A DNA stretch of 64,000 bases from Narcine bancroftii (lineage: Eukaryota): positions 191,332,001-191,396,000 of the forward strand of contig NC_091470.1 in NCBI RefSeq assembly GCF_036971445.1, in the 5' to 3' direction. The notes below the pieces were generated by a model. That model saw only the letters and a program-made list of their open reading frames with translations. It had not been told where the DNA came from and searched no databases. This document shows, piece by piece, positions 24,375-60,752 of this stretch. Position 1 is the first letter of the stretch. Every line of letters starts with the position of its first letter. Made by a program: the position numbers and the translations under genes.

Positions 24375-25700
24375 GAGGGATATGTCATTGTGTGGGGTAC
24401 GTCATCATGTGGGACACAGTCATCATGTGGGCCACTGTGATTATGTGAGACACTCTCATCGTGTGGGACATACCAGTGGGTAGAACACGTCATCATGTGG
24501 GACACATTATTGTGTGGGACACATTATTGTATGGTTCATGTCATTGTGTGAGACGCGTTATTGTGTGGGACGTGTTATCGAATGAAACACATAATTGCGT
24601 GGAACATGCTATTGTGTGGGGCACGTTGTGTGTGTCACATTATTTGGGACACATCATTTGTGGACATGTCATTGTGTGGGACATGATGTTGTGTGGTTCA
24701 TATCATCATGTGGGAGATGTTATCATGTGGGACACGTTATTGTATCGGACTTGTTATTTTGTGGGACACGACATCGTATGGGCCACATTATTGTCTCGGA
24801 CATGTTATCATGTGGGACAAGTTATTTTGTGGGACACATCACCATGTGGGACATGTCGTTGTGAGGAAGAGAATATTTTGTGGGACATGTTATTGTGTGG
24901 GACATGTTATTGTGTGGGACACGTTATTGTGTGGGACTCATCATTCTGTAAGGCACATCATCATGTAGGACACATTATTGTTGGGACACTGTCATTTTAT
25001 GGGACACGTTGCCATTTGGGGCATGTCATTCTGTTGGCCACGTCATTCTGTGAGGCACATCATCCTGTGGGGCACATCATCAAGTCGGACACATCATTGT
25101 GTGGGACACATCATCGGGTGGGACACGTCATTGTGTGGACACATCATCATTTGGGACCTGATATTGTGTGGGAAACATCATTGTCTAGGACATGCCATCA
25201 TGTGGGACACATTACTGTGTGGGACACTGTCATCATGTGGGACACTGTTATCATGTGGGACATGTTGTCATGTGGGACACGTTATTGTGTGGGACACGTC
25301 ATCATGTAGGACACGTCATTGTGTGGAACATGTCATCATTTGGGACCTGATATTGTGTGGGAAACATCATTGTCTGGGACATGCCATCGTGTGGGACACT
25401 GTCATCATGTGGGACACTGTTATCATGTGGGACATGTCATTGTGTGGGACACGTTATTGTGTGGGACACATTATTGTCTGGGACATGTCATCGTGTGGGA
25501 CACTGTCATCATGTGGGACACTGTTATCATGTGGGACATGTCATTGTGTGGGACACGTTATTGTGTGGGACACATTATTGTGTGGGACATGTCATCGTGT
25601 GGGACACGTTACTGTGTGGGACATGTCATCGTGTGGGACCCGTTATTTTGTTGTACATGTCATTGTGTGGGACCCGTTATTGTGTGGGACATGCTATTGT
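24375..25700. repeat. ~1.3-kb minisatellite, 17-19-bp unit (TG)TGTGGGACAYGTYATYR
   Basis: Dozens of TGTGGGACA cores, more homogeneous toward the 3' end; lies between Rex1-type fragments. Confidence 0.95.
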
Positions 25701-27026: not shown

Positions 27027-27070
27027 CCCAGCAACGGTTGACACATGATGCCCGTGCTATTTGATTGGCT
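27027..27070 (+). promoter_or_regulatory. MHC class II-type X1-X2-Y enhanceosome module (RFX/CREB/NF-Y sites), distal and inverted relative to the beta gene
   Basis: CCCAGCAACGGTTG (X1, compare HLA-DRA CCTAGCAACAGATG), overlapping TGACACA (X2-like), exactly 20 bp of spacer, then TTGATTGGCT (Y, compare CTGATTGGCC). It sits in a non-repeat patch between a Rex1 tail and a small tandem repeat. Confidence 0.65.
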
Positions 27071-30542: not shown

Positions 30543-31212
30543 GGAGGAGACGGGACCGGGGAGGGGGGGTCCGGAGGAGACGGGACCGGGGAGGGGGGGT
30601 CCGGAGGAGACGGGACCGGGGAGGGGGGGTCCGGAGGAGACGGGACCGGGGAGGGGGGGTCCGGAGGAGACGGGACCGGGGAGGGGGGGTCCGGAGGAGA
30701 CGGGACCGGGGAGGGGGGGTCCGGAGGAGACGGGACCGGGGAGGGGGGGTCCGGAGGAGACGGGACCGGGGAGGGGGGGTCCGGAGGAGACGGGACCGGG
30801 GAGGGGGGGTCCGGAGGAGACGGGACCGGGGAGGGGGGGTCCGGAGGAGACGGGACCGGGGAGGGGGGGTCCGGAGGAGACGGGACCGGGGAGGGGGGGT
30901 CCGGAGGAGACGGGACCGGGGAGGGGGGGTCCGGAGGAGACGGGACCGGGGAGGGGGGGTCCGGAGGAGACGGGACCGGGGAGGGGGGGTCCGGAGGAGA
31001 CGGGACCGGGGAGGGGGGGTCCGGAGGAGACGGGACCGGGGAGGGGGGGTCCGGAGGAGACGGGACCGGGGAGGGGGGGTCCGGAGGAGACGGGACCGGG
31101 GAGGGGGGGACCGGGGAGGGGGGGTCCGGAGGAGACGGGACCGGGGAGGGGGGGTCCGGAGGAGACGGGACCGGGGAGGGGGGGTCCGGAGGAGACGGGA
31201 CCGGGGAGGGGG
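30543..31212. repeat. 30-bp G-rich VNTR (ggaggagacgggaccggggagggggggtcc), ~22 copies
   Basis: 18 identical units at 30543-31082, one unit with a 15-bp internal duplication, then further units. Confidence 0.98.
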
Positions 31213-33756: not shown

Positions 33757-35702
33757 CTTCTTTCTTTGGCTTGGCTTAACGGACGAAGATTTATGGAGGG
33801 GTAATGTCCAAGTCAGCTGCAGGCTCGTTTGTGGCTGACAAGTTCAATGTGGGACAGGCAGACACGGTTGCAGCGGTTGCAAGGGAAAATTGGTTGGTTG
33901 GGATTGGGTGTTGGGCTTTTCCTCCTTTGTCTTTTGTCAGTGAGGTGGGCTTTGCAGTCTTCTTCAAAGAAGTTTGCTGCCCGCCGAACTGTGAGGCGCC
34001 AAGATGCACGGTTTGAGGCGATATCAGCCCACTGGCAGTGGTCAATGTGGCAGGCACCAAGAGATTTCTTTAGGCAGTCCTTGTACCTCTTCTTTGGTGC
34101 ACCTCTGTCTCGGTGGCCAGTAGAGAGCTCACCATATAACAAGATCTTGGGAAGGCGATGGTCCTCCATTCTGGAGATGTAACCTACCCAGCGCAGTTGG
34201 ATCTTCAGCAGCGTGGATTCGATGCTGTCGGCCTCTGCCATCTCGAGTACTTCGATGTTGGTGATGAAGTTGCTCCAATGAATGTTGAGGATGGAGCTGA
34301 GACAACGCTGGTGGAAGCATTCTAGGAGCCATAGGTGATGCCGGTAGAGGACTCATGATTCGGAGCCGAACAGGAGTGTGGGTATGACAACGGCTCTGTA
34401 TACGCTAATCTTTGTGATGTTTTTCAGTTGGTTGCTTTTCCAGACTCTTTTGTGTAGTCTTCGAAAGGCACTATTTGCCTTGGCGAGTCTGTTGTCTATC
34501 TCGTTATCGATCCTTGCATCCGATGAAATGGTGCAGCCGAGATAGGTAAACTGGTTGACCGTTTTGAGTTCTGTGTGCCCGATGGAGATGTGGGGGGGCT
34601 GGTAGTCATGGTGGGGAGCTGGCTGATGGATGATCTCAGTTTTCTTCAGGCTGACTCCAGGCCAAACATTTTGGCAGTTTCCGCAAAACAGGACGTCAAG
34701 CGCTGAATGGGCAACTAAAGTGGCATCAACTGCAAAGAGTAGTTCACGGACGAGTTGCTCTTGTGTCTTGGTGTGAGCTTGCAGGCGCCTCAGATTGAAG
34801 AGACTGCCATCCTTGCAGTACCAGATGTAAACAGCGTCTTCATTGTTGACATCTTTCATGGCTTGTTTCAGCATCATGCTGAAGAAGATTGAAAAGAGGG
34901 TTGGTGTGAGATCGCAGCCTTGCTTCATGCCATTGTTAATGGAGAAGGGTTCAGAGAGCTCATTGCTGTATCTGACCCGACCTTGTTGGTTTTCGTGCAG
35001 ATGGATAACCATGTTGAGGAACTTTGGGGGGCATCCAAGGCGCTCTAGTATTTGCCAAAGCCCTTTCCTGCTCACGGTGTCGAAGGCTTTTGATGAGGTC
35101 AACAAAGGTGATGTAGAGTCCTTTGTTTTGTTCTCTGCACTTTTCTTGGAGCTGTCTGAGGGCAAAGACCATGTCAGTAGTTTCTCTGTTTCCGCAAAAG
35201 CCGCACTGTGATTCTGAGAGAACATTTTCGGCGACACTAGGTATTATTCTATTTAGGAGAATCCTAGCGAAGATTTTGCCTGCAATGGAGAGTAGCGTGA
35301 TTCCCCTGTAGTTTGAGGAGTCTGATTTCTCGCCTTTTTTGTGCAGGTTGATGATGATGGCATCACATAGGTCCTGAGGCAGCTTTCCTTGGTCCCAGCA
35401 AAGCTTGAAAAACTCATGCAGTTTGGCATGCAGAATTTTGCCACCAACCTTCCAGACCTCTGGGGGGGATTCCATCCATACCTGCTGCTTTGCCACTTTT
35501 CAGTTGTTCAATTGCCTTGTATGTCTCTTCCCGGATGAGGGCCTCATCCAGCTCTAGCCTTAAGGGCTGTTGATGGAGCTGGAGCAGGGCAGATTCTTGG
35601 ACTGAGTGGTTGGCACTGAAAAGAGATTGAAAGTGTTCTGATCATCGGTTGAGGATGGAGATCTTGTCACTGAGGAGGACTTTGCCTTCTGAGCTGCGCA
35701 GC
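33757..35702 (-). mobile_element. RTE-clade LINE, 5'-truncated, inserted in a CR1 tail
   Basis: NYRGITLLSIAGKIFARI, KQGC.LTPTLFSIFF, LRWVGYISRMEDHRLPK, C-terminal CNRCNRVC; CCAAGCCAAAG tail. Confidence 0.95.
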
Positions 35703-36710: not shown

Positions 36711-37194
36711 GGTGGGAGAGAGAGGTAGGGAAAGTCCCAGGCCAAGAGGACATGGGCAGATTGGGTGTTAAGAGGTCCTAGTCTGAGGGAGGCAGGATGG
36801 GAGATTCCAAGGGTTGCACTCCATGCTCCTCCCCCATACCAGTGACCGGGATATTGCCCCCCAGGGCAAGGCTGTTGAATTGGTGAATTTGTATCACTGT
36901 TGCTGTTAATCTAATGTTCCAGCAAGAAGATTCCCAGTGCATCTGTGCTTTGCATTTGTGTGTGTAACAAACTCTCACTTCATTGCAGAGACTGGAGTCA
37001 AGGAGCACCTCCAGCAGCAGTGATCACAGCTCCCTAGGCCCCTGTGTCTGGATGGCAAGTGGGAGGGGGCAGAATGTAAACATCCCCACGCCCCCCCCAC
37101 CTGACTCAGGGCAGAGCTGGCACAAAACGAGTCCATCGGATTTCCCAGGCTGTCGACATTAGAATCTGACCCCTTGAGGACCAGACATCCATGC

Positions 37195-38224
37195 ACCCCC
37201 CCTCTCTCCTGCCCCCCAGAGCACCCACCTCTCTCCTCCTCCCCCCCCCCAGGGCACCCACCTCTCTCCTCCTCCCCCCCCCCAGGGCACCCACCTCTCT
37301 CCTCCTCCCCCCCCAGGGCACCCACCTCTCTCCTCCTCCTCCCCCCCCCCAGGGCACCCACCTCTCTCCTCCTCCCCCCCAGAGCACCCACCTCTCTCCT
37401 CCTCCTCCCCCCCCAGGGCACCCACCTTCTCTCCTCCTCCTCCTCCCCCCCCAGNNNNNNNNNNNNNNNNNNNNNNNNNNNNNNNNNNNNNNNNNNNNNN
37501 NNNNNNNNNNNNNNNNNNNNNNNNNNNNNNNNNNNNNNNNNNNNNNNNNNNNNNNNNNNNNNNNNNNNNNNNNNNNNNNNNNNNNNCTCTCCTCCTCCTC
37601 CTCCCCCCCCCAGGGCACCCACCTTCTCTCCCTCCTCCTCCCTCCCCCCCCCCAGGGCACCCACCTTCTCTCCTCCTCCTCCTCCCCCCCCCAGGGCACC
37701 CACCTTCTCTCCTCCTCCTCCTCCCCCCCCAGGGCACCCACCTTCTCTCCTCCTCCTCCTCCCCCCCCAGGGCACCCACCTTCTCTCCTCCTCCTCCTCC
37801 CCCCCCCAGGGCACCCACCTTCTCTCCTCCTCCTCCTCCTCCCCCCCCAGGGCACCCACCTTCTCTCCTCCTCCTCCTCCCCCCCCCAGGGCACCCACCT
37901 TCTCTCCTCCTCCTCCTCCCCCCCCAGGGCACCCACCTTCTCTCCTCCTCGCTCCTCCCCCCCCAGGGCACCCACCTTCTCTCCTCCTCCTCCTCCTCCC
38001 CCCCCAGGGCACCCACCTTCTCTCCTCCTCCTCCTCCCCCCCCAGGGCACCCACCTTCTCTCCTCCTCCTCCTCCCCCCCCAGGGCACCCACCTTCTCTC
38101 CTCCTCCTCCTCCCCCCCCAGGGCACCCACCTTCTCTCCTCCTCCTCCTCCCCCCCCAGGGCACCTCACCTTCTCTCCTCCTCCTCCTCCCCCCCCAGGG
38201 CACCCACCTTCTCTCCTCCTCCTA
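37195..38224. repeat. ~35-42-bp polypyrimidine minisatellite CCAGGGCACCCACCTTCTCT(CCT)nCCCCCC, broken by N gaps
   Basis: About 20 visible units; gaps at 37455-37586 and 38225-38423. Confidence 0.95.
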
Positions 38225-38423
38225 NNNNNNNNNNNNNNNNNNNNNNNNNNNNNNNNNNNNNNNNNNNNNNNNNNNNNNNNNNNNNNNNNNNNNNNNNNNN
38301 NNNNNNNNNNNNNNNNNNNNNNNNNNNNNNNNNNNNNNNNNNNNNNNNNNNNNNNNNNNNNNNNNNNNNNNNNNNNNNNNNNNNNNNNNNNNNNNNNNNN
38401 NNNNNNNNNNNNNNNNNNNNNNN

Positions 38424-39765
38424 NTCTCTCACCTGCTGAGCTGGAGGTTCCACTTGCTTGAAAAGGGCATCAAAAAATCACAGTGCCCAACAGCAGAGTG
38501 AGCTGCCTCAATGACCATCACCCAGTTACACTCACATTTACTGTGACAAAATGTTTTTTTTGAGATAGGTATGTGGTAATTCTGGCCATGACCAAGGAAA
38601 AGTCTGGACCACTGCAATTCGCCTACCATCACAAATCACTCCATAGTAGATGCAGTATCACTGGCTCTCCCCCCCTTCTTCTGGATCAGCTTGACAACAC
38701 CAACTCATAACATGCAGCTGATCTTCATCAACTACAGCTCACCCTTCAACATCATTATTCCCTCATTGCTGGTCAACAATCTCAACTCCAGGCCTCTGCA
38801 TTCACCTCTGCCACTGGATCCTTAACTTCCTAATCGGAAGACTAGTCAGCATGAATTGGAAACAAATTCTCCTCCTCACTGATTATTAACACAAGTGCAC
38901 CCCAAGGATACGTGCTTAGCCCACTGCTCTACCCATTATACACCCACGACTGTGTGGCCAGGCACAATTCCAATGCTATCTGCAAATTTGCCAACGACAT
39001 GGACATTTGTCAGCAGAATGACAACATACAAGGAGAGAGATCAACTCATCGAAAGGTGTCACAACAACCTCGCGCTCAACGTCAGCAAAACCAACTAGAT
39101 GAATTGTGGTCTTCAGGAGGAAATCAGGAGAACGTGATCTATCCTCATAGAGGGGTCAGCAATGGAGAGGGTCAAGAACTTCAAATTCCTGGAGTTGATA
39201 TCTGAAAATCTGTCCTCGAGCCTCCATGTCGATGCAATCACAAAGAAGGCTCACCAGTATATATTTTTGTGAGGTGTCTGAGGGGATTCGGTATGTCACC
39301 GAAGCCACTTGCAAATTTCTACATTTGGACCGTGGAGAGCATTCTGGCTGGTTGCATCTGGTATGGAGATGCCAACACTCAGGACAGGAAAACCTCCAGA
39401 GGGCTATTAACTCAGCCTGTGACAATCACAAGCACCAGACCTTCACTCCATTGAGGACATCTACACGAGGTGATGTGTAAAGAAATTTAAAAAAGCAGCC
39501 TCTATTCTCAAAGACCCCCCACCACCCAGGCCATGCCCTCTTCACTCTGCTACCATCAGAAATCTAAAGACGAGCACTTAGTGGCACAAGGACAGCTTCT
39601 TCCCTTCTGCCATCAGATTTCTGAATGAACCGCAGACTCACTTTGCTTTTGTTCTTGCAGAATTTTTATTTATTTTTTTAAGGTGGTTCATATGAATGTT
39701 TGCACTGTGAAGCTGCCACAAAACAATGAATTTTGAGACATGTTCATAACAATAAATTCAGATTC
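38424..39765 (+). mobile_element. Rex1/Babar LINE RT and 3' end
   Basis: VSCLND..PV.LT, LSPLLY.LYTHDCVARHNSNAICKFA and ESILAGCI motifs. Confidence 0.85.
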
Positions 39766-40689
39766 ACCATTAAGAATCCACCATTAACCATGAACTCCTG
39801 CCTTTAGTTTTTTTCTTACACTTTACACACATCACATTCAACTCCATCTGCTACTTCTCTGCCAAGCGCTGCATCCAGTCACCCTCACACAGGCACACAC
39901 CAGGAACTTAACTAGATCCCAGCCATCCCAACCAATGGTGTGTCTACTTGCTGACACGCTGACTGGCATTTTATTATAAATTTAACTAATTTAAACTCCC
40001 GAACCATCCCCCTAACCCACAGGAAAGAATTACCAGAATTTAACCAAAACAAACGTCAGGGTAGGTACGAGGTGAGGGGTTGTAATCTACGCAAGTGGAC
40101 AGAAGACAGAGTCACCTCTGAACAAAGACCTGTATCAAAGAGGCAGGGAAGTCCATGGACCAATGCTAGATAATAAAATTAGTACACATGGGATGGCACA
40201 GCTGTTGTAACCCAAACTGCCTAGTTTTGGGCACAGTGTGGACCGCCAGATGGCAATATGCAGGGTGTCCCCAGGATTAAGACACCCCATCCCCTCCCAA
40301 GTGATCGTGCACCCAATGCCACAACAGGAATAAAGTACCATCTCCACCCACCCTCCACCCTTGATCCCCGCACTCCCACGCCTCAGGATCCCACGCCCAC
40401 CCCCTCCAAAGAGATCTTCTGCCCCCATGACCCAAAGGCATGCAGTGCAACCTCCACCCACCTTACCCCCTCCACCAAGGATCTCCCCCCACCTCCAGGG
40501 ATCCATTCCCCCCCCCCCACCTGGACCCAGTGCCCAGTCCCCCCCCCCCACCCCAGGGACCTGACACCCCCTTCCCCGTTGGGATCTTGCGCCCCCTTCC
40601 CTTCCTCAACCCCGGAATCTGGAGCCCCCACCCCCCCCCCCCATCCGATGTCCGTCCCCCTCATCTTCATTTTCCCTCCAAACGCTGGG

Positions 40690-41360
40690 ATCCGGTGCCC
40701 CTCCTTTTCACTCGCCGCCCCTCTCCCCTATATGGATCCGCCGCCCCCCCCCCTCTCCCGGGGACCGGCCCGTCACGCCGGTAAGACAGGACTCCCGTCC
40801 ATGCGGTGGCTGGTGCCCGGGACCGGCGGGCGGACAGCGCCGGGAGTCGGGGAGAGGTTGCACCCCGCCGACGGCTTGCAGGCCCGATGCTCGAGCGCGC
40901 GGGGGTGAGAAGGGTCCCGGGGATGTTCTCACCTCTCCGCGGCAGCACCTCTCGTTCATAGATGGGAATGTTGTTCCACACACGCCCAACATGTCCTGGT
41001 AAACCGCCTCCGGATCCTCCTTGTTCCAGCGGTCCACGTTGCTCTGCATCCACTCCTTCACCACCACAAACCTCCTTAGGACGGGGTCTAAGTACCAGAT
41101 CACCTCACCGTCGTAGATCGATTTTCTGACGAAGGTCCATTCCCCACGGCGCTGCTGTTGAACTCACAGCCCTGAATAATGAGTCAACGAGTGAGCTCCT
41201 GGGTGGGAGGGAGACAGGACACAGAGTCACCCCCGCCCCACTCTGGGCATCCCCTCTCCAGCATCAGGCCCGCAGGCTGCAGCCCCCGCCCTCATTCCAG
41301 TTCCCACCCCACACCGTCCATCCCCCCGCAAGGCTGGAACCTCGGATATATCCGCAGTCC
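40690..41360. other. CpG island spanning MHC II beta exon 2 and the start of intron 2
   Basis: Dense CpG (e.g. gggaccggcgggcggacagcgccggg, tcgagcgcgcggggg) against a CpG-depleted background. Confidence 0.7.
40933..41198 (-). CDS. mhc2b: MHC class II beta chain, exon 2 (beta-1 peptide-binding domain); frameshifted as assembled (possible pseudogene or consensus error)
   Basis: Acceptor cctgtctccctcccacccAG| and donor G|GTGAGA. Frame-corrected translation: GAHSLTHYSGCEFNSSAxGEWTFVRKSIYDGEVIWYLDPVLRRFVVVKEWMQSNVDRWNKEDPEAVYQDMLGVCxNNIPIYEREVLPRR. It has the beta-1 Cys pair, the NSS glycosylation site and W61/N62/N82 equivalents, and resembles the shark class II beta motifs GAHS...C.FNS...WM.SNVDRWN...C..NIPI recalled from nurse shark. 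Length 266 nt (net -1). Confidence 0.9.
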
Positions 41361-41560
41361 CGCCCCTTCCCTCTTTAATCGCCCCCTTTCCTANNNNNNN
41401 NNNNNNNNNNNNNNNNNNNNNNNNNNNNNNNNNNNNNNNNNNNNNNNNNNNNNNNNNNNNNNNNNNNNNNNNNNNNNNNNNNNNNNNNNNNNNNNNNNNN
41501 NNNNNNNNNNNNNNNNNNNNNNNNNNNNNNNNNNNNNNNNNNNNNNNNNNNNNNNNNNNN

Positions 41561-41740
41561 CTCCCCCCCTCCTCCCTCCCCCCTCCTCCCTCCCCCCCTC
41601 CTCCTCCCCCCCTCCTCCCTCCCCCCTCTCCCTCCCCCCCCTCCTCCCTCCCCCCCCTCCTCCTCCCCCCCCTCCTCCCTCCCCCCCCTCCTCCCTCCCT
41701 CCCCCCTCCTCCCCCCTCCTCCCTCCCCCTCCCCCCCTCC
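41561..41740. repeat. Pure C/T low-complexity tract next to the N gap 41394-41560, in intron 1
   Basis: Only C and T on the plus strand. Confidence 0.9.
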
Positions 41741-41744
41741 TGGC

Positions 41745-44635
41745 AGTTCATTACCAACAGTATCCAAAACTGTACTTTTGAGGCCACAGGATACCCTGCA
41801 CTGACTACATGTTCCTTTGTGACAGAGGCTCCGCTACTGGTTTCCTGCCTCCAGGTGCAACTGCCCATCATTCCCTTTGCCTCCTGAATGATCTGCTGCA
41901 CAGTTCCCCCAACTCTGGAGAACTGCAGTTGGGTGCACTTGTACTGTCCCAGATTTCCCACATCCTGGAAGAGGAGCACACTACTGCCCTGGCTGCCATT
42001 CCCTCAGCTCAGACTGTACGATAAGTAAACACTACCCAAAACTCGCCTGTTCCTTTTTCCTCAGGAGGCACCATCATTGCCATCACTTCCTCACCATCTG
42101 CTCTCCAAAGCCTTGACCTAAAGATTCAAAGTCCAATCTGGACACTAGCTGCTCCAACAATGGTCACTCCCTTTGTTAATGCAAATCTGCATTCATCAAA
42201 GAGGTGGGCAACAGCCTCTACTTCACCGCAATCATCCCGCAGACTGTGTGTGGAAGGTGATGTTCCAGTCATGCAGGAAGGATCTCACTGGGAGGCCCCT
42301 TCTCTCTACCAGCCCAGCAAAGTCCTGGTGCTTGATAGTGAGCCCTGGCAATGAGGAATTCTACAAGATGTCCTGGAGAGTCTGCTCTGGGAACCATCCC
42401 ACCAGGTCCATCAAGACTTCATCTCTCAGTTTCTGCAGGATGAACCATGCTGACCACTGCCTGGTGGCCTTGTGGTCAAAGTTGTTGTTCTGGAAAAACA
42501 TTTCCAAATCATAGGTGGGGCCAGGCCTATCCTTTGCAATGCCACTTGGTGCCTTCATACTTTGGATCCTTGTACAGCCCAATTCATATGAATACAAAGG
42601 TAGTCATCAGGATGAGGGCCAAGTTGGGTACAACCTTGTCACCATTTTCTGGTGCCTTCAGACCCAATTCATTCTGGACACCCTTATGAATCAGAAACCT
42701 GCTCTGGTAAATGCCAGGGTGGAGATTCAGGAGATGGGCCACCTGCATCACTTACAGCAGCACTGGGAGCACCTCCCACCTGATGACCAGGTTCTTTGCC
42801 ATTATTGAGAGGGAGTGCTAAGCCCACGGTCCCAAATTTTGGTGGACTTTTGTGATCCACTCCAACCAATCTTTGCTGAGCGCCTTAGTGGACCGCTCAG
42901 GCCAGTTACCAAAAAAGTATTGCCTCAGTTTGCTTTGAGCTTACCTTGGTGCACGTAAACTCAAACTGCCCACATATGCTGGTCAGTCTCCAGACCAATC
43001 GTATATCCAAAGATAGAAATGTCGTACATGTACAGGGAGGCCTTAACCCGAGTGCCTCCACTGTCCAGCAAACATTACTCCTCTTTTGTCCTCATCCTTC
43101 CTGATGGATTCATCAAAGGCCTCTATCCAGCACCCAAATAAGCCTTGCCCACCTCCGGACTTGATAGAGAAGCTGTCTGTTTCCCACCTATTGATTTGGA
43201 CTGCACTACAGATATTTGTGTGGAACAGTTTAATCCAATTCCAAATTCCTTCCCCAAAGCCCATTTTGGATAACTCATTCACATTGTGTATGTGTGTGAC
43301 ATCTAGTCAAAAGCCCTCTCCTAGTCTAAGTTGACCAGGCAGGAATCCACTCCCCTCCCTGCACGTAGGCAATGGTATCCTTGAGGAGCATATCAGAGAT
43401 CTTCCTGCCCAGGACCATGCAGGGCAGGTCTGGGTGGATACCTACCCCAGGTCAGACTTGACGATTCATAATGGCCCTGGACAAGACTTTGTCATCAATA
43501 TTTAGCAATGATATGGGTTTCCATTTCCTGATATACTCCTCCTTCTGCCACCTGTTTGAAGATTAGGATGATGATGCCCTTTTTCATGGGAGTCAGACAT
43601 ACTTCCTGCCAGAGGAGCATAGCATTGTACACTTCCAGCCAGTCTGGGCCCACCCAGTCCCACAGACCCATGTACAACTCAGCCAGAGTTTTACTTGATC
43701 CAAATGAATGGATGGAGTCTCGCAGCTCCCCCAGAGTAATTGACGGATCAAACAAGTTCCTTGTACTGTCATGCAAGACTTCTATGATAGAGAACAGGAT
43801 GTTTTGGGAGGCCATTCTGTCTATCAACATAAAAGGATCTGCAGCTCCATGCTGAGGTTCTTCCTGTCCCGGCTGGTGTGAAGGATAAGCTTGGCCCTGT
43901 TGCTGTGCAAAGTCCCAGTCAGCTGGACTTCACCTCACCACCTATCCTTCATGGAAATGTTTTTCCAGACAAAATTTTGAGCACAAGTCCATCAGGCAGT
44001 GGTCAGCATGGAACATCCTGCAGAAAATGAGAGACACACAAAGCCTCATTGCCAGGACTTGGCCTGGCTGGCACTGAGGATATCCCAGTCAAATCCTCCT
44101 GTACAATTGGAACATCACCATCCACACACATTGTCTCCAAGATGACTGCAGTTCAGCAGAGACAGTAACTCATCTCTTTGCACAATGCATATTCAGCATA
44201 TGGAGAATGCAAGGGTTCTTGTCACAGTTCATCCCCAGTGGCAGCAGGACAGAGGACTCTCCAATCTACATGCTGTTGCCGGGGACACACACAGAGTCCA
44301 ACTTCTAGAACTGCTGGAAGACCATTAACTGGGTGAAAGATTCACTTTAGGAGTACGTGCTGAGGTTTGCTGCTGACAACGAGATGGCACTGTGCGTGTG
44401 TGGTGGGGCGGGGGGCGCGGAAAGATAGAAAGGTCCACAGTCTCGAGTCCTCCCATTATTGGGCAGTAAGGGGGAAGTTCCTCAAACTGGGATTTTTTGT
44501 GGGGATGGGGTCACAAGTAACAAGATGGCGATTATGCTGAAAATAGAGAACATGTAATAATGATGGGAACATGATACTAAGGGTGGGAAGCAACTTAGAA
44601 AAGTTTTGTTTTGTAAATAAAGTCTATTTTGGAGA
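41745..44635. mobile_element. Two Tx1-type LINE fragments in intron 1 (minus ~41745-43860; plus ~43870-44635)
   Basis: LSKMGFGEGIWNWIKLFH, FFQNNNFDHKATRQWSA and VLMDLVGWFPEQT motifs; AATAAA tail at ~44617. Confidence 0.75.
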
Positions 44636-44829
44636 AACCACCTGAAAGCTCAATAAATTGGACTAAAAAAAGAGAACTTCCCTCTTGCCAGGTGCCGAGA
44701 ACCAAGAGCTGGTCTCAAAGTGAAGAGAGAAAACTTTCTTTACGTAGCCGCTGGTGAATCACCCGAAATACAATTTGATTAAATTGCGGCCATAAACCGA
44801 AGAGGTGAAACGTCCAAGCCACACACTGA

Positions 44830-45250
44830 AGTGCATCACATATTTTCCAACTCACGGGACCGAGCCGACGATTCGCCCGCAGGACTTGGCCGATCCTTTC
44901 CCACTGAACCCATCACATCGGTCCGGACCTCAGGCTCACCCAGCCCCAGGGATGGAAGTGGAGCCGCTGAGAGCCGGCGGGACACTGGGACAGGGGCACA
45001 GAGGCGACGGGACCCCGGGACTCACCGACTCCGACCTCCCGCTGTCCACGGAGATGCGCGGAGCAGAGGAGCAGGGACACCCGAAACCACGAAGCGCCGA
45101 ACGGAGCTGTCCATTCCCTCATTATCGCTCGCTGGTCACACAGGGAACTGCGACGCTCTCTTCCGACCCGCTTTAAATATAGGGCGCCGAATGCACCAAT
45201 CACAACCGGCAAAAAGGGAACCAATCATGAACGGGCAAGGCGGGCAGGGA
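44830..45250. other. CpG island over the MHC II beta promoter, exon 1 and start of intron 1
   Basis: High GC content and CpG density. Confidence 0.7.
45026..45122 (-). CDS. mhc2b: MHC class II beta chain, exon 1 (signal peptide): MREWTAPFGASWFRVSLLLCSAHLRGQREVGV+G
   Basis: ATG at 45122, 50 bp below a TATATTTAAA box. 97 nt (32 codons + 1) with a hydrophobic FRVSLLLC core, ending at a consensus G|GTGAGT donor (intron starts 45025). Phase 1 joins exon 2 as G|GA GCT CAC = GAH. Lies in a CpG-rich island. Confidence 0.8.
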
Positions 45251-45312
45251 GGAGCCAATCACAAGCGGGAATTGGGGAACCAACCACAAAGTTGAAGGAA
45301 GGAGTTTCTGGG
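45170..45312 (-). promoter_or_regulatory. Proximal promoter of the MHC class II beta gene: TATA box plus three Y/inverted-CCAAT boxes and one degenerate copy
   Basis: On the minus strand: TATATTTAAA (45181-45172), TGATTGG at plus-strand CCAAT 45196-45200, 45221-45225 and 45255-45259, GTGGTTGG near 45280-45287, an opposite-orientation CCAAT at 45271-45275, and partial X-like CCCAGAAAC at 45312-45304. Confidence 0.75.
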
Positions 45313-45637
45313 CAGACCAGAGCGCTAGATGGAGGCGCTTGGAGCAATTACGGAGGTGCTGGGGGGAGATGGGGAGCTGCCCACTGGCTGCCTGTGGTAT
45401 CAAGGCTCTGTGGGTCTGGGTGGGGCCGGACCATGAGGAAGGGCATTAACGCTCTCCTCTGCACACAGAATGGGGAGGAGGATATCAGGAATTGGACCAC
45501 CATATCAGTGTTAAATATTGATTACAAATTCCTCCACTGCCCTCCATAACATGATGACCCTCCACTACACATGTCCAGTATAGAAATGAAGAGAGTGTCA
45601 TCAAGATCCTCGTAGTTCAATTAACTATTCAGCACAT

Positions 45638-47312
45638 CTCTGTATACGCTTATCTTTGTGAGGTTTTTCAGTTGGTTGTTTTTCCAGACTCTTTTGTGTA
45701 GTCTTCCAAAGGCACTATTTGCCTTGGCGAGTCTGTTGTCTATCTCATTGTCGATCCTTGCATCTGCTGAAATGGTGCAGCCGAGATAGGTAAACTGGTT
45801 GACCGTTTTGAGTTTTGTGTGCCCGATGGAGATGTGGGGGGGCTGGTAGTCATGGTGGGGAGCTGGCTGATGGAGGACCTTAGTTTTCTTCAGGCTGACT
45901 TCCAGGCCAAACATTTTGGCAGTTTCCGCAAAGCAGGACGTCAAGCGCTGAAGAGCTGGCTCTGAATGGGCAACTAAAGCAGCATCGTCTGCAAAGAGTA
46001 GTTCACGGACAAGTTTCTCTTGTGTCTTGGTGTGAGCTTGCAGGCGCCTCAGATTGAAGAGACTGCCATCCGTGCGGTACCGGATGTAAACAGCGTCTTC
46101 ATTGTTGGGGTCTTTCATGGCTTGGTTCAGCATCATGCTGAAGAAGATTGAAAAGAGGGTTGGTGCGAGAACACAGCCTTGCTTCACGCCATTGTTAATG
46201 GAGAAGGGTTCAGAGAGCTCATTGCTGTATCTGACCCGACCTTATTGGTTTTCGTGCAGTTGGATAATCATGTTGAGGAACTTTGGAGGACATCCGATGC
46301 GCTCTAATATTTGCCAAAGCCCTTTCCTGCTCACGGTGTCGAAGGCTTTGGTGAGGTCAACAAAGGTGATGTAGAGTTCTTTGTTTTGTTCTCTGCACTT
46401 TTCTTGGAGCTGTCTGAGGGCAAAGACCATGTCAGTAGTTCCTCTGTTTGCGCGAAAGCCGCACTGTGATTCTGGGAGAATATTCTCGGCGACACTAGGT
46501 ATTATTCTATTTAGTAGAATCCTAGCGAAGATTTTGCCTGCAATGGAGAGCAACGTGATTCCCCTGTAGTTTGAGCAGTCTGATTTCTCGCCTTTGTTTT
46601 TGTACAGGGTGATGATGGTGGCATCACGAAGATCCTGAGGCAGTTTTCCTTGGTCCCAACAAAGCTTGAAAAACTCATGCAGTTTGTCATACCCACACTC
46701 CTGTTCGGCTCCAAATTATGGGTCCTCTACCGGCATCACCTACGGCTCCTAGAACGCTTCCACCAGCGTTGTCTCCGCTCCATCCTCAACATCCATTGGA
46801 GTGCTTTCATCCCTAACGTCGAAGTATTCGAGATGGCAGAGGTCGACAGCATCGAGTCCACGCTGCTGAAGATCCAGCTGCGCTGGATGGGTCACGTCTC
46901 CAGAATGGAGGACCATCGCCTTCCCAAGATCGTGTTCTATGGCGAGCTCTCCACTGGCCACCGTGACAGAGGTGCACCAAAGAAAAGGTACAAGGACTGC
47001 CTAAAGAAATCTCTTGGTGCCTGCCACATTGACCACCGCCAGTGGGCTGATATCGCCTCAAACCGTGCATCTTGGCGCCTCACAGTTGGGCGGGCAGCAA
47101 CCTCCTTTGAAGAAGACCGCAGAGCCCACCTCACTGACAAAAGGCAAAGGAGGAAAAACCCAACACCCAACCCCAACCAACCAATTTTCCCCTGCAGCCG
47201 CTGCAACCGTGTCTGCCTGTCCCGCATCGGACTTGTCAGCCACTAACGAGCCTGCAGCTGACGTGGACTTTTACCCCCTCCATAAATCTTCGTCCGCGAA
47301 GCCAAGCCAAAG
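45638..47312 (+). mobile_element. Young RTE LINE with 5' inversion (inverted 45638-~46684, forward ~46684-47312)
   Basis: Minus-strand RT ORFs (LLFADDAALVAH) abut the plus-strand C-terminus (VIPTLLFG...CSRCNRVC); TSD attcagcacat (45627-45637) / attcaggacat (47313-47323). Confidence 0.9.
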
Positions 47313-56689: not shown

Positions 56690-59608
56690 CAGAGTAATGA
56701 CCAGGCAGTAGGACTGATGGAAGATGAGGTCACAAGGCAGTGATGGGGTCAGGGGAAGGTGATGAGCTCATGGGATGTGATGAGGTCAGGGGAAGGTGAT
56801 GAGGTCAGAGGAGATGATGAGGTCATTGAGCAATAATGAAGTTGTGGAGTAATGATGAGGTCATGGGAGGTGATGAGATCAGGGGAAGGTAATGAGATCA
56901 GGGGAAGGTGATGAGATCAGGGGAAGGTGATGAGGTCAGGGCAAGTGATGAGGTCATGGGAGGTGATGAGGTCAGAGAGGTGCTGAGGTCAGGGGAAGGT
57001 GATGAGGTCATGGAGCAATTATAAAAATATAGAGCACTGATGAGGTCATGGGAGGTGATGAGATCAGGGGAAGGTAATGAGATCAGGGAAAGGTGATGAG
57101 ATCAGGGGAAGGTGATGAGGTCAGGGGAAGTGATGAGGTCATGGGAGGTGATGAGGTCAGAGAGGTGCTGAGGTCAGGGGAAGGTGATGATGTCATGGAG
57201 CAATTATGAAGTTATGGAGTGGTGATGAGGTCAGGAGAGGTGATGAGGTCATGGAGCAGTGGTGAGGTCACAGAGCAATGATGAAGTTATGGAGCAATGA
57301 TGAGGTCAGGGAAGGTAATGAGGTCAGGGGAAGATGATGATGTCAGACGAGATGATGAAGTAATCAAGCAATGATGAAGTTATGGAGTAGTGATGAGGTC
57401 AGGGTAAGGTGAGATCATGGAGAAATGATGAAGATATGGAGCAGTTATGAGGTCAGGGGAGGTGATGAGATCAGGAGAAGGTGATGAGATCAGGGAAAGG
57501 TGATGAGGTCATGGGAGGTGATGAGATCAGGGGAAGGTAATGAGATCAGGGGAGGTGATGAGGCCATGGGAGGTGATGAGATCAGGGGAGGTGATGAGAT
57601 CAGGTGAAGGTGATGAGATCAGGGGAGGTGATGAGGTCATGGGAGGTGATGAGATCAGGGGAAGGTAATGAGATCAGGGAAAGGTGATAAGATCAGGGGA
57701 AGTGATGAGGTCATGGGAGGTGATGAGGTCAGAGAGGTGATGAGGTCAGGGGAAGGTGATGAGGTCAGGGGAAGGTGATGAGAGCAGGGGAGGTGATGAG
57801 GTCAGACGAGATGATGAGGTAATCAAGCAATGATGAAGTTATGGAGTAGTGATGAGGTCAGGGTAAGGTGATGAGATCATGGAGAAATGATGAAGATATG
57901 GAGCAGTTATGAGGTCAGGGGAGGTGATGAGATCAGGAGAAGGTGATGAGGTCATGGGAGGTGATGAGATCAGGGGAAGGTAATGAGATCAGGGGAGGAG
58001 ATGAGATCAGGTGAAGGTGATGAAATCAGGGGAGGTGATGAGGTCATGGGAGGTGATGAGATCAGGGGAAGGTAATGAGATCAGGGAAAGGTGATAAGAT
58101 CAGGGGAAGTGATGAGGTCATGGGAGGTGATGAGGTCAGAGAGGTGATGAGGTCAGGGGAAGGTGATGAGGTCATGGAGCAGTGATGAGGTCAGGAAAGG
58201 TGATGAGGTCATGGAGCAGTGATGAGGTCACAGAGCAATGATGAAGTTATGGAGCAATGATGAGGTCAGGGAAGGTAATGAGGTCAGGGGAAGATGATGA
58301 GGTCGGACGAGATAATGAGGTAATCAAGAAATGATGAACTTATGGAGTAGTGATGAGGTCAGGGGAAAGTGATGAGATCATGGAGCAATGATGAAGATAT
58401 GGAGCAGTTATGAGGTCAGGGAAGGTAATGAGGTCAGGGGAAGATGATGAGGTCGGACGAGATAATGAGGTAATCAAGAAATGATGAACTTATGGAGTAG
58501 TGATGAGGTCAGGGGAAAGTGATGAGATCATGGAGCAATGATGAAGATATGGAGCAGTTATGAGGTCGGGGAGGTGATGAGATCAGGGAAAGGTGATGAG
58601 ATCAGGGAAAGGTGATGAGGTCAGGGGAAGTGATGAGGTCATGGGAGGTGATGAGGTCAGGGGAAGGTGATGAGGTCATGGAGCAATGATGAAGTTATGG
58701 AGTGGTGATGAGGTCAGGAAAGGTGATGAGGTCATGGAGCAGTGATGAGGTCACAGAGAAATGATGAAGTTATGGAGCAATGATGAGGTCGGGGAAGATG
58801 ATGAGGTCAGATGAGATGATGAGGTAATCAAGCAATTAATCAAGCAAAGTTATGGGAAAGTGATGAGGTCATGGGAGGTGATGAGGTCAGGGGAAGGTGA
58901 TGAGATCATGGAGCAATGATTAAGATATGGAGCAGTGATGAGGTCATGGGAGGTGATGAGGTAGGGGAAGGTGATGAGATCATGGAGCAATGATAAAGAT
59001 ATGGAGCAGTGATGAGGTCAGGGCAGGTGATGAGGTCAGGGGAGGTGATGAGATCAGGGGAAGGTAATGAGATCAGAGGAAGATGATGAGGTCATGGAGT
59101 AATGATGAAGTTATGGAGTAGTGATGAGGTCATGGGTGGTGATGAGGTCGGAGAGGTGATGAGGTCATGGAGCAGTGATGAGGTCACAAAGCACTGATGA
59201 GGTCAGTGATGAGTTCAGGGGAAGATGATGAAGTCATCGAGCAATTATGAAGTTATGGAGTAGTGATGAGGTCGAGGGAGGAGATGAGGTCAAGGAAAGT
59301 GATGTCAGGGGAGGTGATGAGATCAGGGGAAGGTGATGAGGTCAGGGGAGGAGATGAGGTCATGGGAGGTGATGAGATCAGGGGAAGGTAATGAGATCAG
59401 GGGAAGGTGATGAAGTCAGGGGATGGTGATGAGGTTACAAGGCAGTGATGAAGTTATGTAATAGTGATGAGATCAAAGGAACGTGATGAAGTAAGGAAAG
59501 GTGATGAAGTCAGGGGTAGGTGATGAGGTTACAAGACAGTGATTAAGTTATGTAATAGTGATGAGATCAAAGGAAGGTGATGAGGTCAGGCAGGAGATGA
59601 GATCAGGG
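56690..59608. repeat. 2.9-kb purine-skewed satellite, 18-19-bp unit GTGATGAG(G/A)TCA-GGGGAAG / -TGGAGCA
   Basis: Continuous array with higher-order duplications, e.g. an exact 150-bp repeat at 58261-58410 and 58411-58560. Confidence 0.97.
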
Positions 59609-60752
59609 GAATTTTGCAATTTTTAATGTTAAGGGTTTGAATAATCAGATAAAAAGGAAGCGGGTTTTGAATTATTAAGAAAATGAAGGTGGATATTGCT
59701 TTTTTGCAAGAAACTCATTTGACGGAAAAAGAACATTTGAAATTAAAAAGAGACTGGGTTGAGCATGTTATTTCATTTTCCTACAATTCCAAATCTTGTG
59801 GTGTACCAATTTTAATTCATAAAAATTTATCTTTTACATTAGATTTTATGTTGGAAAAGAAGGGTGGAGCTTTGATGATTATTAATATTTTTTGATTAAT
59901 TAATTGATGATTAATATTTTCTGAAGCTTGGACATTGTTAAATATTTATGCTCCTAATGTAGATGATGAAAAATTTAGTACTGACGTTATTTTGGGATTA
60001 AATGAAGCAAACAAAAATATATTGGTAGGAGGAGATTTTAATTGTTGTTTGGAACCTTTAATGGATAAATTACCAAAATCAGTAAGAAAATTAAAGATAG
60101 CTAAACATATATCTAAGGTTATGAAGGATTTAAATTTGGTGGAAATATAGAGAAGATTGAATCCAATGGAAAAAGACTTTTCATTTTATTCAGCTACACA
60201 TGATTCATGTTCAAGAATTGATTTTTTTAAATATCTGCTCAATTACAAGGGAAAATAACCAACGCTGAATATAAAAGTCGAACTTTATCGGATCATTCAC
60301 TTCTATGAATATCATGTATTAGTTCAGATATGGTTAAAACTAGTTACAGATGGAGATTTAATACAGCTCTCGAAACAATCTGAATTTGTTAGTTTTCTTA
60401 GAGATCAAATTAAGATGTTTCTACAATTAAATGTGAATTCAGTTCAAAGTACATTTACATTGTGGGATGCGTTGAAGGCATATTTGAGAGGTCAGATTAT
60501 TGTTTTACAACTAAACTTAAAAGAAATATTTGGCAGATAGTAATAAAATGAGGAAGAGATTAAAGAATTGTAGAAAAATTTGCAGAGAAATGTTTCAGAA
60601 GATAAAAAATATACAATTATCTAATATGAAAATGTAATATAATACCTTACAAACATATCATTATGAGAAAATGATTCAGAGATCTAAACAATGGTATTAT
60701 GAGTTAGGAGAAAGAGCTCATAAGGTCTTAGCTTGGCAATTTAAAACAGAAC
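59609..60752 (+). mobile_element. L1 ORF2 endonuclease fragment
   Basis: FNVKGLNN..KRKRV, DIAFLQETHL, NIYAPN...VGGDFNCCL motifs; abruptly fused to CR1 (VPQGSVLGPLLF) at ~60753. Confidence 0.9.

What the first reader, a model, noticed from the sequence alone, without database searches (positions are those of the whole stretch)
40933..45312. Cartilaginous-fish MHC class II beta gene hidden among repeats (promoter, exon 1, exon 2)
Seen: two minus-strand exons with consensus phase-1 splice sites that join in frame (…GV-G|AHS…), a TATA/CCAAT promoter and CpG islands. Knowledge: exon 2 has class II beta-1 hallmarks (Cys pair, NSS glycan site, WN, C-x-N-N with the N82 equivalent) and the shark-type WMQSNVDRWN motif. 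The ORF track misses the gene because exon 2 is split over different frames. Elasmobranchs are the earliest-diverging living lineage with MHC, so its structure is informative.
Basis: partly seen in the sequence, partly recalled or inferred. Interest (0 to 1): 0.75.

Follow-up and report, generated by a model that had tools for sequence, protein, structure and literature searches.

The report
Expressed ray MHC class II beta
This is the first half of an ordinary, spliced and expressed immune gene (MHC class II beta) of an electric ray that only looks broken because of three sequencing errors and a likely gap in the assembly; its control boxes sit far from the promoter and likely act as long-range enhancers.

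Summary
Taken alone, that looks like loss of the only class II beta gene found in this genome. Public contigs refute it. Three putative RNA runs cover exon 2 at word depths of thousands and carry all three indels corrected; a DNA run carries two. Loose ends show the 45026|41198 splice and a splice to a beta-2-type exon 3 that the assembly lacks. Leader and beta-1 group with ray class II beta chains. An intact class II alpha gene lies 22 kb upstream; NCBI names it for Narcine bancroftii. Beta-2-microglobulin and class I genes lie within 1.6 Mb. Side result: the beta promoter has TATA and three Y boxes but no correctly spaced X-X2-Y module. The alpha promoter has one, and about 15 more lie away from any promoter found, one at window 27027-27068. 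Earlier scan notes report the same in a skate. Verdict: ordinary gene, useful curation, untested enhancer lead.

The parts
45299..45312 (-). X1-like half site (11 of 13 positions of a recalled mammalian X1 consensus), without an X2 core and 36 bp from the nearest Y box (non-canonical spacing)
   Evidence: chance of such a score in this 358-bp stretch is about 0.04-0.08 (my arithmetic), so weak
45196..45286 (-). Array of three Y boxes (inverted CCAAT, starting 45262, 45228, 45203) plus one degenerate unit at 45286; period 25-34 bp
45172..45181 (-). TATA box
   Evidence: sequence; contigs of run X6 reach 45135-45143, which fits but cannot show a start
45026..45143 (-). Exon 1: part of 5' UTR and leader peptide (ATG at 45122, 32 codons + 1 nt)
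   Evidence: tblastn to P0004 55% identity, E 1e-5; X6 contigs at depth 1e4-2e4 with no differences; X4 DNA contig identical over 44600-45600
41199..45025 (-). Intron 1 (3.8 kb; GA-rich repeat and N run 41394-41560)
   Evidence: splice seen in loose ends; repeats
40933..41198 (-). Exon 2, beta-1 peptide-binding domain; 266 nt as assembled, 267 nt (89 codons) with the indels seen in contigs
41178..41178 (.). Assembly error 1: one base too many
   Evidence: left out in contigs of X1, X2, X6 and X3
41145..41145 (.). Assembly error 2: one base missing behind this place
   Evidence: put in by contigs of X1, X2, X6 and X3
40975..40975 (.). Assembly error 3: one base missing behind this place
   Evidence: put in by contigs of X1, X2, X6; X3 does not cover it
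38225..38424 (.). Run of exactly 200 N, 2.5 kb into intron 2 beside a GA-rich tandem array; likely the gap that holds exons 3 onward
   Evidence: inference (masks and gaps cannot be told apart, but a 282-nt beta-2 exon cannot hide under 200 or 132 masked letters)
27027..27068 (+). Distal X1-X2-Y module (12 of 13, spacing 20), opposite strand to the gene, 18 kb 3' of the beta ATG in assembly coordinates; one of three diverged copies

Best explanation
This is the leader and beta-1 exon of a spliced, expressed MHC class II beta gene in the MHC of an electric ray, and its three frameshifts are assembly errors while its later exons likely lie in an assembly gap. The chain likely pairs with the product of the intact class II alpha gene 22 kb upstream on the same strand to present peptides to helper T cells, as in other jawed vertebrates. 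Shown: exons, splice junctions, corrected indels in contigs, linkage. Inferred: the full-length protein, pairing, peptide presentation. Transcription likely starts just downstream of the TATA and Y-box array; CIITA-type control would come mainly from X-X2-Y modules at the alpha promoter and at distal sites (untested).
For:: contigs of runs X1, X2, X6 (kind 'RNA?', study P1) lie on 40928-41199 at mean word depths up to 2e4, 8e4 and 2e5 per bin. Intron bins are at 0-3, except a G-rich patch at 40470-40657 (up to 76). All three runs carry all three indels; X3 ('DNA?', study P2) carries 2 of 3 and does not cover the third. No substitutions are listed. A loose end before 40928 (X1, X6) reads in frame as the E-P-E-V-T-V start typical of beta-2 in the aligned relatives. 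The three X3 contigs with gaps in 40000-41310 show 2, 1 and 4 gaps, while an X4 contig has 0 over 44600-45600: the stretch between the N runs has poor consensus. All three indels sit in runs of 1-3 equal bases. Beta-1 is 36-52 of 83-86 residues identical to 25 elasmobranch chains and 17-20 of 80-85 to 5 bony-fish chains. The tree puts it inside the elasmobranch clade (99/96) in an 11-row group with four named rays (94/97, not starred). The alpha gene is whole (247 aa, four coding exons). Beta-2-microglobulin at C5:190.30 Mb and class I alpha-3 exons at 190.38 and 189.78 Mb match the published elasmobranch MHC layout (PMC10751288, passages).
Against: Exons 3 onward were never seen whole: only 15 letters of exon 3. 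That motif, P0004 and P0012, the TM-tail stretch and profile searches of 414 kb find nothing in the assembly. The runs' RNA status is a guess by the tool, though exon-only cover with spliced ends fits RNA or cDNA. On exon 1 only 1 of 3 putative RNA runs laid (X6) had contigs; X2 and X7 had none (the tool warns that a filter drops records). Depth with the correction is below total depth at each site (for example 6262 of 19162 in X1); I attribute this to overlapping contigs that end beside the site, which fits table 8 but is an inference. The DNA support is one contig at depth 2 and may come from the assembly's own sample. Pfam does not recognise the 54-aa core, and its best PDB hits are weak class I (E 0.014); whole relatives also fall below the Pfam cut-off.
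Confidence: 0.93

Rival explanations
1. The gene is a truncated pseudogene and this ray has lost MHC class II, as cod, pipefish and an anglerfish have.
For: Three frameshifts; one beta-1 hit genome-wide; no beta-2/TM/tail exon found; no beta chain of this species among the 32 proteins.
Against: Contigs correct all three indels and splice on to an exon 3; the alpha gene is intact with a canonical promoter.
Confidence: 0.02
2. The assembled haplotype carries a real null allele and the contigs come from the other, intact allele.
For: Class II copy-number variation and absent loci are reported in sharks (PMC9992475, PMC8010645, passages). Depth with the correction is below total depth.
Against: Contigs match the assembly with no listed substitutions in a normally polymorphic exon; a null allele differing only by three homopolymer indels is unlikely; intron DNA nearby shows further indels against X3.
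Confidence: 0.03
3. It is a W-type (W-category) beta chain or another non-classical class II chain.
For: Best PDB hits of the core are class I; longest end branch among the elasmobranch rows (0.65); 10 residues unseen in 25 relatives, four to six of them in well-conserved columns; only one allele seen.
Against: Nests among named class II beta chains. [quoted passage not shown] The partner alpha-2 keeps the Ig tryptophan where W-type alpha has F/L (PMC8713811, passages). Relatives show 0-12 private residues by the same count. No W-type sequence was in my tree.
Confidence: 0.02

Closest known systems
Batoid MHC class II beta chains (Rhinoraja longicauda P0012, Pristis pectinata P0017, Hypanus sabinus P0021, Mobula hypostoma P0018) and sawshark P0013
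   Same: Leader of the same length as the ray chains, beta-1 48-52 of 86 identical, Cys15/Cys79, N19 glycan site, W61, N82, R93, phase-1 exon borders.
   Different: A normally conserved stretch around beta 41-49 departs (P for F/Y, R for K, V for A). One alpha/beta pair was found, at the low end of the 1-4 copies reported (PMC10751288, passages). Beta-2, TM and tail could not be compared.
Shark DAB and DBB class II beta lineages (PMC8010645, parts 2-3 of 7 read; PMC9992475, passages)
   Same: Beta-1 hallmarks; linked alpha/beta pair.
   Different: These lineages are defined on the beta-2 domain and split within sharks, so they cannot be assigned here.
Mammalian W/S-X-X2-Y promoter module and distal S-Y / X-Y enhancers of the HLA class II region (PMC7866136, PMC1802633, PMC2292219, passages)
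   Same: X1-X2-Y at 19-21 bp spacing at the alpha promoter, at two class I-type promoters and at about 15 distal sites.
   Different: In mammals every class II promoter has the module in fixed order and spacing; this beta promoter has TATA, a Y-box array and only a mis-spaced X1 half site. No binding or enhancer activity was tested.

Membership tests
Elasmobranch MHC class II beta | Beta-1 cysteines C15 and C79 | tested here: met
   feature from PMC8010645
Elasmobranch MHC class II beta | N-glycosylation site at N19 | tested here: met
   NSS in register
Elasmobranch MHC class II beta | Peptide-binding W61 and N82; D33 and R93 | tested here: met
   N82 is in frame once the indel shown by contigs is allowed for
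Elasmobranch MHC class II beta | Leader exon and beta-1 exon joined in phase 1, spliced in transcripts | tested here: met
Elasmobranch MHC class II beta | Beta-2 C1-set domain with C117/C173 | tested here: inconclusive
   only 15 letters of exon 3 seen; exon not found in the assembly
Elasmobranch MHC class II beta | K198, TM glycines, tail without YXX-phi motif | not testable with these tools
   exons not found
Elasmobranch MHC class II beta | Linked class II alpha gene, within the MHC near beta-2-microglobulin and class I | tested here: met
Classical class II | High allelic polymorphism in exon 2 | tested here: inconclusive
W-type (W-category) MHC | Location outside the MHC | tested here: not met
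   PMC10751288 passages
W-type (W-category) MHC | Partner alpha-2 with F/L in place of the Ig tryptophan | tested here: not met
   W kept in P0037; feature from PMC8713811 passages
Canonical class II promoter (S-X-X2-Y) | X1 and X2 18-21 bp upstream of a Y box in the beta proximal promoter | tested here: not met
   best 6 of 13 at that spacing for 4 of 4 ATTGG sites; an 11 of 13 half site lies 36 bp away; consensus recalled, not from a call
Distal S-Y enhancer | Binding of RFX, NF-Y and CIITA and enhancer activity | not testable with these tools
   sequence match only

The most novel reading that the evidence does not exclude
In rays the class II beta gene has no canonical X-X2-Y promoter. It runs on a TATA plus NF-Y array and is coupled to CIITA through a field of distal X-X2-Y enhancers on both sides of the single alpha/beta pair, expanded by local duplication. 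This would date locus-control-region style regulation of MHC class II to the ancestor of jawed vertebrates and show a promoter design not described in the papers found.
Probability: 0.4. Interest if true: 0.6.

Novelty: new member of a known kind. Interest (0 to 1): 0.35.

Why it matters
For curation: this assembly shows the only class II beta locus found as frameshifted and truncated, and no beta chain of this species turned up in the protein searches although its alpha chain did, so an automated survey would likely report a false loss of MHC class II in an electric ray. For biology: if the distal X-X2-Y modules work as enhancers, long-range CIITA control of class II is as old as jawed vertebrates, and the element at 27027-27068 makes that testable in a standard reporter assay.

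Tried and rejected
Pfam MHC_II_beta on the genome found nothing and rang in no control; Pfam on the 54-aa core gave 0 families; the word-based protein search with the core found no candidate. None is informative, since whole shark chains also fall below the cut-off. The pseudogene / class II loss reading was held after and dropped; CD4, CD74 and CIITA were therefore not searched. Exon 3 onward was sought by regular expressions, tblastn, whole-genome protein and pattern searches (one search had no first-look candidates and shows little), a window pattern search and profiles over 414 kb with alpha exons as positive controls at 108-170 bits: not found. One search listed no holder on record as RNA. 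Runs X2 and X7 had no contig on exon 1: no evidence either way. Local alignment of alpha and beta promoters was not above shuffles (40 of 300 as high). The two pattern hits outside C5 (C9, C29) are not at a recognisable promoter and are taken as chance. The lone cysteine in the alpha-1 helix is common in relatives. Earlier-findings look-ups by place and sequence were empty. No structure was predicted: half the chain is missing and the fold is known.
Full report
Observation. Exon 1 (ATG 45122, donor after 45026) and exon 2 (41198-40933) lie on the minus strand with consensus phase-1 splice sites, a TATA box at 45181, three Y boxes and CpG-rich flanks. Exon 2 does not read through: the class II-like residues are spread over four frame segments, which means three single-base indels and a net frameshift in 266 nt.

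Identity. The 54-residue open core found 4 proteins among 1.84 billion representatives (E 8e-9 to 3e-5). They include a full-length 273-residue chain, P0004, with a C1-set domain and a bamboo-shark protein named class II beta. P0004 also matches exon 1 (55%). A search with P0004 returned 32 proteins; 30 were aligned (the fragments P0002 and P0031 left out) with the window's chain read with X at each break. No further gaps are needed, and C15, N19, D33, W61, C79, N82 and R93 are in register (features from PMC8010645, parts 2-3 of 7 read). Beta-1 identity is 36-52 of 83-86 residues to 25 elasmobranch chains and 17-20 of 80-85 to 5 bony-fish chains. A tree of leader plus beta-1 (31 rows, midpoint root) places it within the elasmobranch clade, in a group with four named rays and six unnamed chains (94/97, below the starring rule).

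Neighbourhood. The window is C5:191,332,001-191,396,000 of G000. A class II alpha gene lies upstream on the same strand, its stop 22,231 bp from the beta ATG. It has four coding exons and an open 247-residue frame that matches P0037, which NCBI names for Narcine bancroftii and holds on a contig of the same length as C5. Beta-2-microglobulin (E 3e-28) and two class I alpha-3 exons lie 1.0-1.6 Mb away, as in the published elasmobranch MHC (PMC10751288, passages). Genome searches found one beta-1 exon and one alpha-1 exon; the first look of that tool is word-based, so these are lower bounds.

The apparent breakage. No beta-2, TM or tail exon was found in the window, in 280 kb downstream or in 70 kb upstream, while alpha exons scored 108-170 bits as controls. 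Genome-wide, the best C1-set matches to two full-length beta chains were class I alpha-3 or class II alpha-2 exons at 31-38%. This looked like a dead sole class II beta gene. X1, X2 and X6 cover exon 2 at thousands to hundreds of thousands in word depth with near-empty introns. All three carry one extra base behind 40975, one behind 41145 and one fewer at 41178, giving 267 nt; X3 (DNA?) carries the latter two at depth 2. Loose ends give the exon 1-2 junction from both sides and an in-frame junction to a beta-2-type exon 3, whose first letters were not found in the assembly. X3 contigs show further indels in the introns between the N runs, whereas the exon 1 region is identical to an X4 contig over 1001 bases. 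So the stretch between two GA-rich repeats has poor consensus. The only N runs in 414 kb are the three in the window. A beta-2 exon is about 282 nt, longer than either downstream N run, so a true gap, likely the 200-N run, is the simplest place for the missing exons (inference). Limits: RNA status is the tool's guess; only X6 covered exon 1; P2 may be the assembly's own sample; no second allele was listed, which says nothing firm on polymorphism.

How it likely works. The beta chain would pair with the neighbouring alpha chain and present peptides to helper T cells without DM, which chondrichthyans lack (PMC8010645). Pairing and presentation follow from established knowledge and were not tested.

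Promoter. Mammalian class II promoters carry S-X-X2-Y in fixed order and spacing (PMC7866136, PMC1802633, passages). Using an X1 consensus and an 18-21 bp spacing that I recalled (neither comes from a call), the alpha promoter scores 11 of 13 with an X2 core and 19-bp spacing. The four ATTGG sites of the beta promoter score 5-6. Against a flat 'no X box': an 11-of-13 half site sits at 45312-45299, but it lacks X2 and is 36 bp from the nearest Y. Across 414 kb, 20 of 870 ATTGG sites score 10 or more at the right spacing, against 0-7 for 11 other spacing windows. For 40 shuffled consensuses the mean was 1.9 and the maximum 12 (at 11 or more: 7 observed, mean 0.3, maximum 3), and 0 of 156 sites scored in 94 kb of other C1-set loci. 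Features left out of the score are enriched too: X2 core in 12 of 20 against 94 of 850, fuller Y box in 15 of 20 against 162 of 850. The 20 are not independent; they fall into about 10 sequence families. Two are a class I-type promoter, one the alpha promoter and two likely chance. Fifteen are distal: eight in a four-copy 3.4-kb repeat 79-90 kb 3' of the beta ATG, three diverged copies at 18, 47 and 52 kb (one at window 27027-27068; boxes better kept than the spacer; two matches genome-wide), and four upstream of alpha. No alpha or beta leader exon lies near them; other genes were not excluded. A tight pattern gave 9 matches in 3.3 Gb and 0 for the reversed control. Six were the sites it was built from; of the 3 new ones, one is a second class I-type promoter in the MHC and two lie elsewhere without a recognisable promoter. 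Distal X-Y enhancers are known in human and mouse, where some are thought to be pseudogene promoter remnants (PMC2292219, passages), which is a live rival here.

Prior knowledge. Elasmobranch class II beta genes are well described (PMC8010645; PMC9992475 and PMC10751288, passages). A search for this species with MHC found 0 papers; the 15 listings were not immunological. Searches on class II promoters and enhancers (15 listings seen of 73, 64, 50 and 34) listed no paper on cartilaginous-fish X-Y modules. Class II loss in bony fishes is from a listing and abstract start (PMC6832177). PMC1351924, PMC6155461 and PMC8713811 were seen as passages. No supplements were read; the alignments in those of PMC8010645 may hold electric-ray chains. 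Two unreviewed notes of this scan report distal X-Y modules and X-less beta promoters in a skate; I read them after finding the pattern here and could not check their DNA.

Verdict. A real, expressed, ordinary class II beta gene, mis-assembled; new member of a known kind; interest 0.35, carried by the curation value and the enhancer lead.

Noticed in passing
L037 3353-9198 and L039 1720-1785 (G000:C5:191,399,353-191,417,785, minus): Intact class II alpha gene (P0037) in tandem upstream of the beta gene, with a canonical X1-X2-Y module about 190-230 bp before its ATG.
   Followed up: yes
window 27027-27068; L040 2938 and 8488: Three diverged copies (about 75% alike over 110-180 bp) of an element with X1-X2-Y, all on the strand opposite to the beta gene and 3' of it.
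   Followed up: partly
L043-L044 (G000:C5:191,287,500-191,298,400); relatives in L050 7256 and L051 3306: A four-copy 3.4-kb tandem repeat with two X-X2-Y modules per unit; one module has about 80%-identical relatives upstream of the alpha gene in the opposite orientation.
   Followed up: partly
L089 and L090 (G000:C5:189,761,543 + and 191,076,512 -): Two paralogous class I-type promoters, each with two X-Y modules about 100 bp apart followed by a leader exon; the L090 leader shifts frame in a G run (assembly error or pseudogene). The class I label rests on linkage and my reading, not on a database match of the leader.
   Followed up: partly
window 45143: One X6 contig (depth 417) carries 29 unlike letters upstream of 45143, not at an AG and not found in the window or fetched loci; likely a library chimera.
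   Followed up: partly
window 41115-41070 (beta-1 residues about 37-49): Residues unseen in 25 relatives in normally conserved columns, confirmed by contigs; the total of 10 private residues is at the upper end of the relatives' range (0-12).
   Followed up: partly
window 45621-47246 and 33800-35700: Two related LINE-type reverse transcriptase remnants (label from my reading of the translation, no family search); the first bounds the unique promoter DNA to about 300-450 bp.
   Followed up: no
window 24384-25691, 30543-31212, 37193-38223, 56740-59611: Long minisatellites (periods 17, 30, 33-38 and 19), several GA-rich and next to N runs.
   Followed up: no
L035 1436-1714 (G000:C5:187.72 Mb): A C1-set exon that reads like tapasin (my reading; not checked against a database).
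   Followed up: no
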